NCBI GenBank assembly: GCA_016187335.1
Contig: JACPJW010000001.1
Coordinates: forward strand, 32,001-96,000
Length of the DNA: 64,000 bases
Origin: Candidatus Aenigmatarchaeota archaeon
Lineage (GTDB): Archaea; Aenigmatarchaeota; Aenigmatarchaeia; GW2011-AR5
Reading direction: 5' to 3'
Shown here piece after piece: positions 43,758 to 53,393 of the stretch (its first letter is position 1; each line of letters starts with the position of its first letter). The position numbers and the translations under genes are program-made. The notes under the pieces are model-generated. The model ran no database searches and was not told the origin of the DNA. It worked only from the letters and a program-made list of their open reading frames with translations.

Positions 43758-44282
43758 TTAGCAGTTCTTCGGCGCCTGCGCAAACGTCTCAAAAGTGCAT
43801 TCCGTTGTCACTACAACCTGGGAAAACGAGGCGCATGTGACGTTTCCTGTTATGTTGAACAGGAGATTTGTGACGTCGCCTCTTGCAAGGCTTACAGGAA
43901 ATGTTGTCAGGGGCGCTGCCGTGAAGCCGGTTTTATTGAACATGGCAGCGGATATAATCGTTTCTCTCTGCTGGCCGTTGTTTCTTACGGCAACCCTTGA
44001 AACGTTCATGGGCCCCGTATCGAGGTATACCTGCGTTACGTCTATGTCGGAAGAGCTGCAATTAACGAAAGAAGCTGCCCGTGTCTGGACTTCCGCGCTT
44101 CCGGTCTTCGCGAGCCCTGAAATTGCCGTGGACACGATTACGGCTATAACCAGCGTTATCGCTATGAGCAGCACGGCGGCAACGAGGGTGTTCATCCCTT
44201 TAGAGGAGAAGAAACCTAGCGGTTTCTCTCCCTCTACCCTCATTTCCCTAAATAAAATATTATGAAATTCCTTTAATCCCAT
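43758..44282 (-). CDS. Archaeal type IV pilin, leader encoded by repeat module A
   Basis: MRVEGEKPLGFFSSKG|MNTLVAAVLL; start may be 44243. Confidence 0.85.
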   Translation of the reverse strand: MGLKEFHNILFREMRVEGEKPLGFFSSKGMNTLVAAVLLIAITLVIAVIVSTAISGLAKTGSAEVQTRAASFVNCSSSDIDVTQVYLDTGPMNVSRVAVRNNGQQRETIISAAMFNKTGFTAAPLTTFPVSLARGDVTNLLFNITGNVTCASFSQVVVTTECTFETFAQAPKNC

Positions 44283-44525
44283 TCATTTCCCTCTTTTCAT
44301 TTTCTTTTTGAATCGAACACTTTCCTATTCTTAATATTTTCTTGCTCAGAGAAGCTTTGCTTCTCTGGCATCTCAACTCGAGGAAAGCAAAGCTTTCCTG
44401 AGTCTTCAGAAACCTTTGGTTTCTGCAAGAAGAGCTCTGCTCTTTGAAGATTTCCGTAGACGCTTTCTTTTTGATCAAACTTTTTCTAAAAGTTTGTTTT
44501 TGATCAAACTTTTTCTAAAAGTTTG
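44198..44525. repeat. Dense array of modules A, C, D and a tandem 29-bp B duplication
   Basis: GGAGAAGAAACC...GGTTTCTCTCC; GGAAAGC-AAA-GCTTTCC; exact tandem 44468..44496 and 44497..44525. Confidence 0.88.
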
Positions 44526-44972
44526 TCAGCAGTTCTTCGGCGTTGAATCAAATACTTCCGTAGTGCATTCCGTGGAAAGTATCACCTGGGAGAACGACGC
44601 GCAGGTGACGTTTGTCGTTATGTCAAAGTTCAGCGTCGCCAGAGACCCTTTGGACACGGCGACGGGGAGCGTTGTTGCATTAAGGGCGGCTTCAACGCCT
44701 GTCTTGTTGTACATCTTGGCGGCAACAATGTTCTCGTTTATCTGCCCGGAGTTTCGCACTGTCACGCGCCCCCTGCTGGCAGCTGTGTCAAGGTAAACAG
44801 CCTCTATGCTCACGTCCGATGACGTGCAGTTCACCGCCTGCGAAGTTCTTGTCGCAACAGTAGCCGTCTGCTCCTTTGTTATCTGCGTGAAAGACGTGGA
44901 AACTATCAGCGAAATAAGAACGGTTATGGCCAGAAGCAGGACAGTCGCGATAAGGGTGTTTACTCCTTTCAT
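44526..44972 (-). CDS. Archaeal type IV pilin
   Basis: MKG|VNTLIATVLL; shared CxxxFSQVxxSTEC...PxNC C-terminus. Confidence 0.88.
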   Translation of the reverse strand: MKGVNTLIATVLLLAITVLISLIVSTSFTQITKEQTATVATRTSQAVNCTSSDVSIEAVYLDTAASRGRVTVRNSGQINENIVAAKMYNKTGVEAALNATTLPVAVSKGSLATLNFDITTNVTCASFSQVILSTECTTEVFDSTPKNC

Positions 44973-45091
44973 ATTTCAATTTTGTTAAATCCTGCTTATA
45001 TAGTTTTTAATCTTGGGAGAAGCGAAGCTTCCCCGAGATTCCGAAAATCTTTGCTTTTCGGGGATTTTCATAAGTTGCTGCTGGTGCCAGT

Positions 45092-45613
45092 CTAGCAGTT
45101 CCTGGGCGACTGCCTGTAATAGTCAGAAGCGCACTCTGTTGAGACGCGCACCTGGGAGAAGTTCGGGCAGTTAGGCACTGCGCCCGTCGTGTTGAAAACA
45201 AGTATCTTTATGTCGCCGTTGGCTATGCCCAGCGGCAATGAGGTGTTCAGCGTGCCGTTGACGCCTGTCACGCTTAGTATCTGCGCTGAAATTATAGTCG
45301 CTGATGACCTGCCTGTGTTGCGTACGGTGACCCGCGATATGTTCGTGCCCGTGTCAAGGTATACGTCTTCTATGGCTATGCCGGCGGCAGAGCACGAAGT
45401 GATGCCTTCTGTCTTGTTGGCAACGGTCTTTCCCTGGTCCGTAGCGATGCCGGATACCCAGCCGGAAATAATCGTTGCGACCACAAGGGCTATCGCTATC
45501 AGCAGGACGGCGGATATCAGGGGCGACACGCCCTTGGAATTGTTAAAGCGGAAGGTAAGGCTGGCTTCTGTTTTCATTTCCGCATTTGAAATTTCCATTT
45601 TACTTCCTCTCAA
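45092..45613 (-). CDS. Archaeal type IV pilin
   Basis: SKG|VSPLISAVLL. Confidence 0.88.
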   Translation of the reverse strand: MRGSKMEISNAEMKTEASLTFRFNNSKGVSPLISAVLLIAIALVVATIISGWVSGIATDQGKTVANKTEGITSCSAAGIAIEDVYLDTGTNISRVTVRNTGRSSATIISAQILSVTGVNGTLNTSLPLGIANGDIKILVFNTTGAVPNCPNFSQVRVSTECASDYYRQSPRNC

Positions 45614-45702
45614 TTTTCCGTTTTGATGAAACTTTTCTGAAATCTGCAGAGAAACAAAGTTTCTCTGAGATCCCGAAGAACTACGTTCTTCGAGGAAGTT
45701 TC
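45600..45702. repeat. Repeat modules B and C
   Basis: CCGTTTTGATGAAACTTTTCTGAAA; GAGAAAC-AAA-GTTTCTC; CGAAGAAC-TAC-GTTCTTCG. Confidence 0.82.
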
Positions 45703-51362: not shown

Positions 51363-51367
51363 ATCAA

Positions 51368-51970
51368 TCAAACGTTTGTTACGCTTACTTCGTCGGTGCC
51401 GTTGTCGTACCTGACATAGCTTATTTCGCTCTTTCCGCCGCTGGTGCCGCCCCTGAAGGTTGCGTTGAATCCCATGACGCACGTGTCGTTGATGTAAGGG
51501 GTGCCCAGGGTTTCAACAAGCAGCGTGTCGTTTGCAAATCTTGTCCTGTATTTCAGCCCGCCTATTTTTTCGGGCATTGAGACGATTATCCTGCCCAGAG
51601 TCGTGTTCGTCCTTGAAACGTATTCGCGCGGTATCATGAGCTTTTCAACGGATGTTTTCATTATGTCGCACGTCTGCAGAATCTCCTTTTTGCCGACGAA
51701 TTTCTTGTTCTCGTCTATGAGCGAGTTCATCGTGGAAACTATAATCCATATCATGATCAGGCTGAAAGCAACGGCAAACGCATGCATCACGAGCTGCGAC
51801 TGGCCTTTACGGGAGAAGAAACTACGTTTCTCTCCCTGTACCCTCATTTCCTTATTATTTTTTACAGAACTCTGAGAAGTTCTACCGTTTTGATTGAACT
51901 TCCTTCGAAAACCACAGGTTTTCGGGGACTCAGGAAAGCTATGCTTTCCTCGAGTTTTTGAAAAGTTCAT
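51368..51970 (-). CDS. Minor pilin-like protein with 56-aa repeat-encoded leader
   Basis: GGTGA Shine-Dalgarno and ATGA overlap at 51970; SFFSRKG|QSQLVMHAF. Confidence 0.82.
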   Translation of the reverse strand: MNFSKTRGKHSFPESPKTCGFRRKFNQNGRTSQSSVKNNKEMRVQGEKRSFFSRKGQSQLVMHAFAVAFSLIMIWIIVSTMNSLIDENKKFVGKKEILQTCDIMKTSVEKLMIPREYVSRTNTTLGRIIVSMPEKIGGLKYRTRFANDTLLVETLGTPYINDTCVMGFNATFRGGTSGGKSEISYVRYDNGTDEVSVTNV

Positions 51971-52533
51971 CGTATCACCGATATCCTGACTTTGGTCACA
52001 TTGTTCTGGTTCCTGCCCAAGTTCTCAACGACAATTTCCCGCGCGCCGGGTCCGATAACGGAGCGCTCCACAATGTCCAGATCCGTATATTCCAGACGCA
52101 TTATTATCGGCATTATCTTTGGCGCCGTGAAATTGTGCGAGCCGAATCGCGTATCAACGACGCCGTAGATTTTTATCGAGTCTATTTTTCTTTTCAGCTG
52201 CTCCTCACTGCCGCCGGTAAATGTTATGAACAGCCTTGAATCAAGCGGCTGCCTCATCTCCAGAAGATACGACAAGCCGTCGTAGTTTGTGTTGTTCTTC
52301 GTGCCGAAGCCGTTTGAAGAAACCATCGCCAAAAGCAGCCCTCCGTCAGCGGCATCTATGTAGTCATTGCTCTGGTTTATGACGTCGTTGCTCTTGTTGT
52401 TTATGTTTGTGACCAGGGAAAATGCAGCGGAGCGCCCCAGTGTCGAGTATCCTGAAGATGCCGCATCCTGCGTGAACCCGACAAAAGAAATCATGGTAAG
52501 GGCAAGCAGCGCCAGCAGCGGTAAAAGCCTCAT
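51967..52533 (-). CDS. Secreted pilus-associated protein
   Basis: Signal peptide; paralogous to the C-half of 53394..54155. Confidence 0.7.
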   Translation of the reverse strand: MRLLPLLALLALTMISFVGFTQDAASSGYSTLGRSAAFSLVTNINNKSNDVINQSNDYIDAADGGLLLAMVSSNGFGTKNNTNYDGLSYLLEMRQPLDSRLFITFTGGSEEQLKRKIDSIKIYGVVDTRFGSHNFTAPKIMPIIMRLEYTDLDIVERSVIGPGAREIVVENLGRNQNNVTKVRISVIR

Positions 52534-52589
52534 GCGATCACTAGATAGTATGGTTTCAGGCAGTTAAAATGTTTGGGGAGCTCGCTGCT

Positions 52590-53393
52590 TCAATACTTGT
52601 TTATGCTTTTCACCTGGAGCTCTATGAAATCAGAGGCGCCTGATAGCGTGAACTCGGCGATGTAAGAAATGTTGGCTGCCGTGCTGTTAAGAACAACCCT
52701 TATTGAATTGCTCGGCAGGAACGACTCGTTCCTCGTGAACTCCGTCCATCCGGTGCCGTATGTGGAGTTGTGCAGGTCGTTTATTGCTATGAGCGATACG
52801 GGCGCTGTCACGTTCAGCGGGATTGTTTTTGTCCTCATCTGCACTATCAGGTTCGTAGTGTTTATTGCAACGGGACTTCCTGGCGTCCCGTTTTTTCTCA
52901 TCGCGAAAAGAACCGCCCTGTTTTCCAGTACAAGGTCGTTTGATCCGTCGCCGTCAATGTCGCTTTCATAGGATTCCACATGCGGCCCCGACAGTATAAG
53001 CAGGTTTCCTTCCTGGAACCTGAGGCCTTCCTGAAAAAGCTGCCTGGGCAGGAGCAGCTGGTATTTTATGGTGTCAGATTTCCCGGAAACAACGAATTCC
53101 CCGCCCTCTATGTTTTCTACCTTCAGCACGCGGATTGCTCCGGGAGCTTCCGAGGACATCTCCCTTATTACGGCGTCAACTCCTGTAAGGACCTCCCTTG
53201 CAGCGCTGAAGCGCTGGCTGGACCTGCCCTCTTCCATGAAATTGTTTATGACGCTCACGACAATGAAAGACGAAACAATGACTATGACAAAGACTATGAC
53301 TTCCAGCGTTATCGTAACGCCCTTCAGAAAGTTTCGCTCTTTGCAGATTCCCTTTTTAGAAATATTATAATCACAAAATTTTGGATTTGCCAT
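52590..53393 (-). CDS. Minor pilin-like protein, leader contains a C-type module
   Basis: NFLKG|VTITLEVI; leader DNA TTCGCTCTTTGCAGATT is shared with ~51248. Confidence 0.78.
   Translation of the reverse strand: MANPKFCDYNISKKGICKERNFLKGVTITLEVIVFVIVIVSSFIVVSVINNFMEEGRSSQRFSAAREVLTGVDAVIREMSSEAPGAIRVLKVENIEGGEFVVSGKSDTIKYQLLLPRQLFQEGLRFQEGNLLILSGPHVESYESDIDGDGSNDLVLENRAVLFAMRKNGTPGSPVAINTTNLIVQMRTKTIPLNVTAPVSLIAINDLHNSTYGTGWTEFTRNESFLPSNSIRVVLNSTAANISYIAEFTLSGASDFIELQVKSINKY

What the first reader, a model, noticed from the sequence alone, without database searches (positions are those of the whole stretch)
43758..53393. Palindromic repeats translated in frame as prepilin leader peptides
Seen: at least six pilin-like genes have leaders of about 15 to 67 aa encoded by hairpin modules, ending at K-G|hydrophobic (MRVEGEKPLGFFSSKG, RFFSSKG twice, GFFSLKG, SFFSRKG, NFLKG). 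Starts at 49082 and 51970 overlap the upstream stop (ATGA; 51970 also has a GGTGA SD), so translation must read through the repeats, and the frame is kept each time. Paralogs without repeats have a 3-aa MKG leader. Known: class III leaders are removed by prepilin peptidase; Rickettsia palindromic elements are a precedent for in-frame repeats. Inference: the cleaved leader is a safe harbour, and the hairpins may tune minor-pilin translation.
Basis: partly seen in the sequence, partly recalled or inferred. Interest (0 to 1): 0.85.

Follow-up and report, generated by a model that had tools for sequence, protein, structure and literature searches.

The report
Hairpin repeats inside archaeal pilin leaders
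In a tiny DPANN archaeon, short hairpin-forming repeats (the same kind that build its tRNA introns) sit in frame between the start codon and the cut site of several pilus-subunit genes, so they are most likely translated and then thrown away with the leader peptide; I found no published description of this.

Summary
Six pilin-like genes on the minus strand (A, H, I, J, K and M in my labels) have a K-G|hydrophobic cut site preceded by 15 to 67 codons made of hairpin modules. Paralogues B, D and O start M-K-G.

The core is a ~56-nt cassette found almost only in this archaeal family. It carries its own ATG and has two open frames and one closed frame.

Evidence for translation is comparative, not direct:
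- Most orthologues of H, I and K in 40 relatives have 3-6-residue leaders joined to the upstream stop.
- In the window genome, H, I, K and M have no start codon next to K-G.
- All 52 orthologues have an in-frame start before the first upstream stop, against 10 of 30 control frames.
- In this genome and a congener with different modules, the whole spacer lacks stops in the K-G frame in 10 of 10 cases (p about 3e-4).
- No cassette joins K-G in its closed frame.
- The mature parts are under purifying selection.

No bulge-helix-bulge intron, GIY-YIG gene or target duplication was found.

Caveats:
- A, I and K may start at the cassette's own ATG.
- J has a TTG directly before K-G.
- Two or three non-pilin genes carry the cassette too.
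- No RNA or protein data were available.

This scan noted bacterial analogues before, on other DNA.

The parts
43758..44243 (-). Pilin-like gene A. The 16-codon leader (44243-44196) is encoded by the cassette. K-G is at 44201-44196. An in-frame ATG further upstream at 44282 would give a 29-codon leader.
   Evidence: Pilin_N, 19 bits; hairpin -20.9 kcal/mol, z -3.4. Residue +1 is Met, so a start at 44195 cannot be excluded.
44526..44972 (-). Paralogue B with a plain M-K-G leader (control state).
   Evidence: The orthologue in G001 also starts M-K-G.
45092..45577 (-). Pilin gene C with a 16-codon unstructured leader. Its G001 orthologue carries an intact cassette of the same length.
   Evidence: That this is a decayed cassette is tentative (same length, little nucleotide similarity).
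45703..46149 (-). Paralogue D with a plain M-K-G leader.
   Evidence: (Pilin_N, 35 bits, above the cut-off).
48357..49082 (-). Minor-pilin-like gene H. The 38-codon leader (49082-48969) is built from three hairpin modules. Its ATG overlaps the stop of gene I (ATGA). The cassette's own ATG is out of frame.
   Evidence: -34.6 kcal/mol, z -3.5. Orthologues conserve K-G-Q-M-F and mostly have leaders of 3-8 residues.
48978..49003 (.). Cassette hairpin of H (perfect 11-bp stem, 4-nt loop).
   Evidence: C2:80978-81003.
49079..49504 (-). Minor-pilin-like gene I. The minimal 15-codon leader (49504-49460) is encoded by the cassette. The frame stays open through the whole 253-nt spacer back to the stop of J (49719).
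   Evidence: Orthologues start M-K-G-Y-I-Y-T-L-E directly behind the upstream stop.
49467..49494 (.). Cassette hairpin of I (perfect 13-bp stem).
   Evidence: C2:81467-81494.
49719..51362 (-). Gene J, a pilin-like protein with a LamG-type lectin domain. Its leader is either 67 codons from ATG 51362, or M-K-G if TTG 51170 is used. K-G is at 51167-51162.
   Evidence: Laminin_G_3 1e-28, DUF7287; -43.9 kcal/mol, z -3.3. The G001 and G002 orthologues lack the TTG.
51368..51970 (-). Gene K (DUF7266-like). The leader is 15 codons from the cassette ATG at 51847, or 56 codons from ATG 51970 (ATGA overlap, GGTGA upstream). K-G is at 51808-51803.
52590..53393 (-). Gene M. The 25-codon leader (53393-53319) holds the AT-rich 5' part of the element and a decayed hairpin module.
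   Evidence: repeat D7; no fold, z +1.1. The G001 orthologue has a 13-codon cassette leader.
54254..54691 (-). Paralogue O with a plain M-K-G leader.

Best explanation
A family-specific, dispersed hairpin cassette (about 56 nt), together with other short purine/pyrimidine palindromes of this genome, has been inserted between the start codon and the native K-G codons of type IV pilin-like genes. Their ancestral leader was only M-K-G.

The inserts are kept in frame and free of stops. Translation therefore starts either at the old ATG next to the upstream stop (H, J and M, and possibly K) or at the ATG that the cassette itself carries (A, I, K). It runs through the hairpins and yields a prepilin with a leader of 15-67 residues. 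The cell's prepilin peptidase then cuts after K-G, so the mature pilin is unchanged.

Shown here: the anatomy, the frame statistics, the short-leader state in orthologues, a peptidase gene in the genome, and purifying selection on the mature parts.

Inferred: translation itself, cleavage of such long leaders, and how the cassette gets there.
For: 1. Ancestral state. Across 40 relatives, most orthologues of H, I and K have leaders of 3-6 residues set directly behind the upstream stop. Leaders built from modules occur only in the window's own family.

2. Necessity. In H, I, K and M no ATG, GTG or TTG lies between the modules and K-G. Gene I has no later start before the end of its conserved hydrophobic segment.

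3. Availability of a start. 20 of 20 H, 20 of 20 K and 12 of 12 I orthologues have an in-frame start before the first upstream stop. For the 15 long leaders, the two control frames have one in 10 of 30 cases.

4. Whole spacers. Counting from the upstream stop to K-G, the K-G frame holds no stops in G000 (H, I, J, K, M), while 30 and 11 stops fall in the other two frames. The same holds for the five spacers of congener G001, which hold partly different modules. By frame permutation p = (2/3)^4 x (1/3)^6 = 2.7e-4.

5. Cassette phase. The cassette has two open frames and one closed frame. All 14 copies that read through into an ORF of 90 codons or more use an open frame (9 and 5). No K-G gene sits behind a closed frame.

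6. Length changes that keep the frame. H differs from I by +1 and +2 nt. In J the length from the cassette's start-codon position to K-G falls in the same frame class in both genomes, even though G001 carries an extra hairpin nested in the cassette loop (I counted 41 and 74 nt by eye).

7. The genes are alive. dN/dS of the mature parts between G000 and G001 is 0.08-0.19, with dS of 1 or more.

8. A Peptidase_A24 gene is present at 31.5 bits, above the 26.5-bit cut-off.
Against:
- The modules are intrinsically poor in stops: two of three frames are open in several spacers, and a second frame is open in four of the ten spacers. Each single case is therefore weak.
- A TTG directly precedes K-G in J (and in the small-membrane-protein gene at C2:850096, in G001 I and M, and in G013 H). 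It could give M-K-G with the cassette left untranslated.
- In gene A, residue +1 is Met.
- Leaders of 38-67 residues are longer than any archaeal class III leader I know of (my own knowledge), and their cleavage is untested.
- Stable hairpins (-17 to -44 kcal/mol) close behind start codons might hinder initiation.
Confidence: 0.72

Rival explanations
1. The modules are untranslated 5' leader RNA. Translation starts right at K-G (TTG or another non-ATG codon) or at a Met just after it, possibly on transcripts started by the AT-rich box that the cassette carries.
For: - A TTG directly precedes K-G in J, in the gene at C2:850096, in G001 I and M, and in G013 H.
- A has Met at +1, and H orthologues conserve Met at +2.
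- In the G015 orthologue of H the cassette lies upstream of an intact native ATG-AAA-GGC, so the cassette can be untranslated.
- The cassette also lies directly 5' of tRNA genes, where it cannot be coding.
Against: - In H, I, K and M the codon before K-G is TCT, CGT or CTG, not a usual start.
- Gene I has no start before the end of its hydrophobic segment.
- The TTG belongs to a 3'-end variant of the cassette that is also seen in non-coding copies.
- This reading does not predict stop-free K-G frames in 10 of 10 spacers, or avoidance of the closed cassette frame.
Confidence: 0.14
2. The modules are removed from the mRNA, by bulge-helix-bulge splicing or another form of processing, as the same kind of modules are removed from this organism's tRNA, rRNA and SRP RNA. 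This would join an upstream ATG to the K-G codons.
For: - Earlier notes on this genome report hairpin-built introns in tRNAs, rRNA, SRP RNA and one mRNA.
- I saw cassette copies inside intron-rich tRNA genes.
- Removal would explain why the cassette's own ATG can be out of frame in H and J.
Against: - A scan for the bulge-helix-bulge motif (4-bp central helix, 3-nt bulges, flanking helices of 3 bp or more, both geometries) found none in H. It found none anywhere that joins an ATG to the K-G codons. The hits in A and J are slippage within the long stems.
- Splicing does not need open frames, yet the frames are always open.
- The flanks of the cassette are purine-rich on both sides and cannot pair.
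Confidence: 0.06
3. The genes with long leaders are damaged copies on their way to loss, or artefacts of assembly.
For: - The cassette ATG is out of frame in H and J by 1 nt at homopolymer runs.
- Relatives manage with short leaders.
Against: - dN/dS of the mature parts is 0.08-0.19, with no internal stops.
- The same layout recurs in several genomes and genera, each with its own sequence.
- The K-J-I-H operon is conserved across the order.
Confidence: 0.03

Closest known systems
Rickettsia palindromic elements (RPEs; Ogata et al. 2000, as reviewed in PMC10969869)
   Same: Both are dispersed palindromic repeats found inside protein-coding genes, in frame and without stops, so that the host gene stays intact and the repeat is read as peptide.
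   Different: - RPEs are about 100-150 bp and sit in surface loops of many unrelated enzymes. Here the units are 20-56 nt and sit almost only in the N-terminal leader that is cut off.
- There is no sequence relation, the host is an archaeon, and the same modules also build tRNA introns.
Hairpin or MITE insertions in bacterial prepilin leaders, noted earlier by this scan (e1-5233032, e1-5272554, e1-363533, e1-5305673; unpublished AI notes) and linked there to Ssn-type GIY-YIG nucleases (PMC11893778)
   Same: In-frame hairpin repeats lengthen a pilin leader just before the peptidase cut site, and sister genes have short leaders.
   Different: - Those cases are bacterial (G|F-T-type site), and several are tied to a GIY-YIG gene and rebuild the cut site.
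- Here no GIY-YIG gene was found in the genome.
- Non-coding copies of the cassette lack the K-G codons, and orthologues show that K-G is native.
Transposed bulge-helix-bulge introns of archaeal tRNA genes (Fujishima et al. 2010, as cited in the scan's notes on this genome)
   Same: The same repeat family occurs inside this lineage's tRNA introns. In both settings the insert lies in a part that the cell later removes.
   Different: In the pilin leaders no bulge-helix-bulge motif was found, and the reading frame is kept. Removal would therefore be at the protein level, not the RNA level.
PARCEL palindromic amphipathic repeat coding elements (PMC2996958)
   Same: DNA palindromes that can be read as protein.
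   Different: PARCELs form tandem arrays inside surface proteins of Mollicutes and protists and stay in the mature protein. I have read only the title and the opening lines of the abstract.

Membership tests
Archaeal type IV pilin-like proteins with class III signal peptides | A charged residue at -2, Gly/Ala/Ser at -1, then a hydrophobic H-domain (PMC4371748) | tested here: met
   K-G followed by 18-22 hydrophobic residues in A, H, I, J, K and M. Pfam Pilin_N, DUF7266, DUF7287 and DUF7289 hits are mostly just below or at the cut-off.
Archaeal type IV pilin-like proteins with class III signal peptides | A prepilin peptidase of family A24 encoded in the genome | tested here: met
   PF01478 at C2:106781-107086, 31.5 bits against a cut-off of 26.5.
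Archaeal type IV pilin-like proteins with class III signal peptides | The leader is actually cleaved at K-G | not testable with these tools
   Needs N-terminal proteomics or an in vitro peptidase assay.
In-frame palindromic elements of the RPE kind | A dispersed repeat family with hairpin potential | tested here: met
   - About 8 strong and 5 or more weaker cassette copies in G000.
- Present in 13 of 24 family genomes with about zero control hits.
- Fold z-scores of -2.9 to -3.6.
In-frame palindromic elements of the RPE kind | Copies lie inside ORFs, keep the frame and introduce no stop | tested here: met
   (see best explanation).
In-frame palindromic elements of the RPE kind | The repeat-encoded residues are present in the protein made | not testable with these tools
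MITE (non-autonomous transposon) | Target-site duplication and a related autonomous element | tested here: not met
   - No duplication is shared by coding and non-coding copies. The AAGG-like words at both ends are explained by an element-borne 5' word plus the native K-G codons.
- No parent element was identified, and GIY-YIG was not found. Other transposase families were not searched.
Bulge-helix-bulge intron | A 4-bp central helix flanked by two 3-nt bulges at the insert's borders | tested here: not met
   My own scan of the six leaders: none in H, and none joining an ATG to K-G. Relaxed motifs were not excluded.

The most novel reading that the evidence does not exclude
One family of small hairpin elements in these ultra-small archaea lives almost only in sequence that the host later cuts away, so each host processing enzyme erases the element from the finished product:
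- tRNA, rRNA and SRP RNA introns (splicing endonuclease);
- tRNA 5' leaders (RNase P);
- prepilin leader peptides (prepilin peptidase).

The cassette even brings the start codon used for the lengthened leader. Its junction at the native AAAGG word suggests that the K-G codons themselves are a preferred landing site.
Probability: 0.35. Interest if true: 0.85.

Novelty: new variant of a known kind. Interest (0 to 1): 0.68.

Why it matters
- It would be an archaeal case of selfish repeat DNA carried inside coding sequence at no cost, because the host's own peptidase discards the extra residues.
- It links protein-level removal to the RNA-level removal (introns, tRNA leaders) of the same repeat family. 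That gives a concrete picture of where mobile hairpins can survive in a 1-Mb genome with almost no spacer DNA.
- It predicts archaeal class III leaders several times longer than those studied, which tests the substrate limits of PibD/FlaK-type peptidases.
- It warns annotators that start-codon calls and signal-peptide predictors, which expect the cut site near the N-terminus, may miss or truncate such pilins in DPANN genomes.

Tried and rejected
- **Splicing:** my own bulge-helix-bulge scan found nothing usable.
- **GIY-YIG lead from earlier bacterial notes:** no GIY-YIG domain in this genome at E of 0.1 or better (genome about 91% complete).
- **Element supplies K-G:** rejected. Non-coding copies end without AAAGG. 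Orthologues of the non-pilin gene at C2:893443 start natively with M-K-S-K-G-D or a similar K-G word.
- **Target-site duplication:** not supported.
- **AT-rich box as promoter with a leaderless start at the cassette ATG:** the spacing (about 14 nt from the box to the ATG) is too short by my knowledge of archaeal promoters. I left this open.
- **tRNA finders:** ARAGORN found no tRNA in the window or in seven loci. Rfam confirmed only the less interrupted tRNAs, so I could not count how many non-coding cassette copies are tRNA-linked.
- **Hairpins and genes genome-wide:** I mapped all hairpins against long ORFs. Without a gene annotation I could not tell how many non-pilin genes have module-built N-termini.
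- **Literature:** five searches found no description of repeats in prepilin leaders or of this cassette.
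Full report
**Setting**

The window is part of a 1.01-Mb, two-contig genome with 47% G+C. Earlier notes of this scan place it among the Aenigmarchaeota-type DPANN archaea.

Positions 43219-54838 hold a minus-strand cluster of archaeal type IV pilin-like genes. Pfam finds Pilin_N, DUF7289, DUF7287 and DUF7266, and one gene has a LamG-type lectin domain. A family A24 prepilin peptidase gene lies elsewhere on the contig.

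**The observation**

I label the genes A to O from low to high coordinates; exact coordinates are in the parts list.

| Gene | Leader length (codons) | Start used |
|---|---|---|
| A | 16 | cassette ATG |
| H | 38 | ATG overlapping the upstream stop as ATGA |
| I | 15 | cassette ATG |
| J | 67 | ATG 5 nt after the upstream stop |
| K | 15 or 56 | internal cassette ATG, or ATG overlapping the upstream stop with GGTGA upstream |
| M | 25 | ATG directly after the upstream stop |

- B, D and O start M-K-G.
- The leaders of A, H, J and K fold much better than shuffled sequence. M's module has decayed.
- Short palindromes with a purine-rich 5' arm, a pyrimidine-rich 3' arm and a 3-nt loop are about four times more common than in one dinucleotide shuffle of the main contig. 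They are densest in this locus.

**What the repeat is**

Four leaders (A, H, I, K) share a cassette of about 56 nt, and J has a variant of it. The cassette consists of:
- an AT-rich word;
- a conserved stretch that contains an ATG;
- a 10-13-bp hairpin;
- a pyrimidine tail.

A profile of the cassette finds further copies in the genome:
- in front of another pilin-like gene (C2:426033);
- in front of a small membrane protein (C2:850096);
- in front of a non-pilin 118-residue protein (C2:893443);
- inside intron-rich tRNA genes (for example window 18087-18140);
- just upstream of a tRNA.

A 22-nt pattern from its 5' half occurs in 13 of 24 genomes of the same family, with almost no hits to the reversed control. 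In a phylum-wide sample it hits 7 of 15 family genomes. Outside the family it hits 2 of 185 genomes, no more than the reversed control, which gave 4 hits.

In three relatives Rfam places position 1 of a tRNA one or two bases after the cassette's end.

The cassette has two open reading frames and one closed frame. The 'alpha' frame is that of its own ATG, and 'beta' is the second open frame. The third frame is closed by a TGA and a TAG.

**Is it translated? Comparative tests**

1. *Ancestral state.* The K-J-I-H operon is conserved across the order. Most orthologues of H, I and K have leaders of 3-6 residues whose ATG sits at or within a few bases of the upstream stop. Long, module-built leaders occur only in the window's own family: G000, G001, G002, G004, G007, G014 and G017.

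2. *Necessity.* In H, I, K and M no usual start codon lies between the modules and K-G. Gene I has none before the end of its conserved hydrophobic segment.

3. *Start available.* Every one of the 52 orthologues has an in-frame start before the first upstream stop. For the 15 long leaders, the other two frames offer one in 10 of 30 cases.

4. *Whole spacers.* From the upstream gene's stop to the K codon, the K-G frame has no stop in H, I, J, K and M of this genome, while the other frames hold 30 and 11. The same holds for the five spacers of the congeneric genome G001, whose leaders are built partly from different modules. Counting for each spacer how many of the three frames are stop-free gives p = (2/3)^4 x (1/3)^6 = 2.7e-4. 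This measure is not inflated by clustered stops.

5. *Cassette phase.* Of 37 cassette copies with enough flank, 14 run on into an ORF of 90 codons or more: nine in alpha, five in beta, none in the closed frame. One of the five beta copies is a chance ORF at a tRNA-intron copy. No K-G gene sits behind a closed frame.

6. *Compensating lengths.*
   - H differs from I by one extra base before the ATG and two in the loop.
   - The J cassette of G001 carries a second hairpin nested in its loop (I counted 33 nt by eye), yet it joins K-G in the same frame as in G000.
   - Where the cassette ATG is mutated (G001 I; the gene at C2:426033 and its G022 orthologue), an in-frame ATG lies further upstream.

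7. *The genes are functional.* dN/dS of the mature parts between G000 and G001 is 0.08-0.19, with dS of about 1 or more.

Together these results fit translation through the hairpins. They are not expected if the modules were untranslated or spliced out.

**Limits**

- The modules are poor in stop codons by their composition, so any single case is weak. The argument rests on the sum.
- In A, I and K the cassette's own ATG suffices, so only 15-16 residues need be repeat-encoded.
- J has a TTG right before K-G. So do the gene at C2:850096, G001 I and M, and G013 H. This TTG belongs to a 3'-end variant of the cassette that is also seen in non-coding copies, but its use as a start cannot be excluded.
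- In G015 the cassette lies upstream of an intact native ATG of the H orthologue. This shows the untranslated state also exists.
- No expression data could be obtained.

**Rivals**

- *Splicing* deserved a test, because this genome's notes report hairpin-built introns in tRNA, rRNA, SRP RNA and one mRNA. My scan found no bulge-helix-bulge motif that would join an ATG to K-G.
- *GIY-YIG link.* The scan's bacterial analogues are linked to GIY-YIG nucleases. No such domain is found here.
- *Pseudogene decay* is contradicted.

**How the cassette gets there**

This remains unknown.
- In every coding case the cassette abuts the word AAAGG or AAGGG.
- Orthologues of the non-pilin gene start natively with a K-G word, and H orthologues all conserve K-G-Q. 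K-G is therefore host sequence, not brought by the element.
- Non-coding copies lack it.
- This hints at a landing-site or microhomology preference that would by itself favour M-K-G genes, alongside selection for harmless sites.
- The cassette's nucleotide sequence is nearly the same across genera whose orthologous genes are saturated at silent sites. That points to an active element or one that is homogenised between copies.

**Comparison with what is known**

- The nearest published parallel is the in-frame Rickettsia palindromic elements (PMC10969869).
- Archaeal class III signal peptides and their peptidases are reviewed in PMC4371748. That review notes that EppA substrates have Gln at +1, as H, K and the gene at C2:426033 do.
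- Five full-text searches found no report of repeats in prepilin leaders.
- This scan has noted bacterial analogues on other DNA. Those are unchecked AI notes and I did not count them as support.

**Verdict**

It needs refining on where translation starts, on exclusivity to pilins, and on the untested regulatory idea.
- I rate this a new variant of a known kind.

Noticed in passing
window 42695-43085 (+): Rfam calls an archaeal SRP RNA of 391 nt against a 317-position model (97.9 bits, just above the cut-off). The extra length lies where repeat pairs I2 and I4 place the same hairpin modules (42729-42795). First-stage notes read it as an intron.
   Followed up: no
window 18087-18140 (+) (C2:50087-50140): A copy of the pilin-leader cassette lies inside what looks like a multi-intron tRNA gene. 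ARAGORN finds no tRNA anywhere in the 64-kb window.
   Followed up: partly
L015:1501-1671, L016:1501-1672, L056:174-322: In three relatives the cassette ends one or two bases before position 1 of a tRNA (Rfam). It therefore occupies the 5' leader that RNase P would remove.
   Followed up: partly
G000 C2:893344-893799 (L102); G001 L106 and L112: A soluble 118-residue non-pilin protein has the cassette as an N-terminal extension of 25 residues (15 in G001). A second G001 copy and other orthologues start natively with a short K-G-containing N-terminus and a normal Shine-Dalgarno word.
   Followed up: yes
L052 (G001:C38:1091-1712): By eye, a rhomboid-like membrane protein appears to start 24 codons upstream through a cassette, in the second open frame. 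No family search was run.
   Followed up: no
window 49719-51362 (-): Gene J joins a pilin-like N-terminus to a LamG/concanavalin-type lectin domain (Laminin_G_3, 1e-28). It may be an adhesive tip or minor pilin.
   Followed up: no
cassette copies in G000, G001, G008, G015, G022: The cassette differs by 0-2 bases in 22 across genera, while silent sites of orthologous genes between G000 and its congener are already saturated (dS of 1 or more). It is either still moving or kept uniform by conversion.
   Followed up: partly
window 49466-49718 (-): The whole 253-nt J-I spacer (30% G+C, 15 stop triplets) has none in the frame of gene I, although the first ATG in that frame is only 39 codons before K-G. 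The open stretch upstream of it is unexplained.
   Followed up: partly
non-coding cassette copies, e.g. L014, L016, L019, L026, L027: The commonest non-coding form of the cassette has its ATG followed eight codons later by an in-frame TAG in the hairpin loop. Copies used in that frame as leaders have lost or shifted this TAG.
   Followed up: partly
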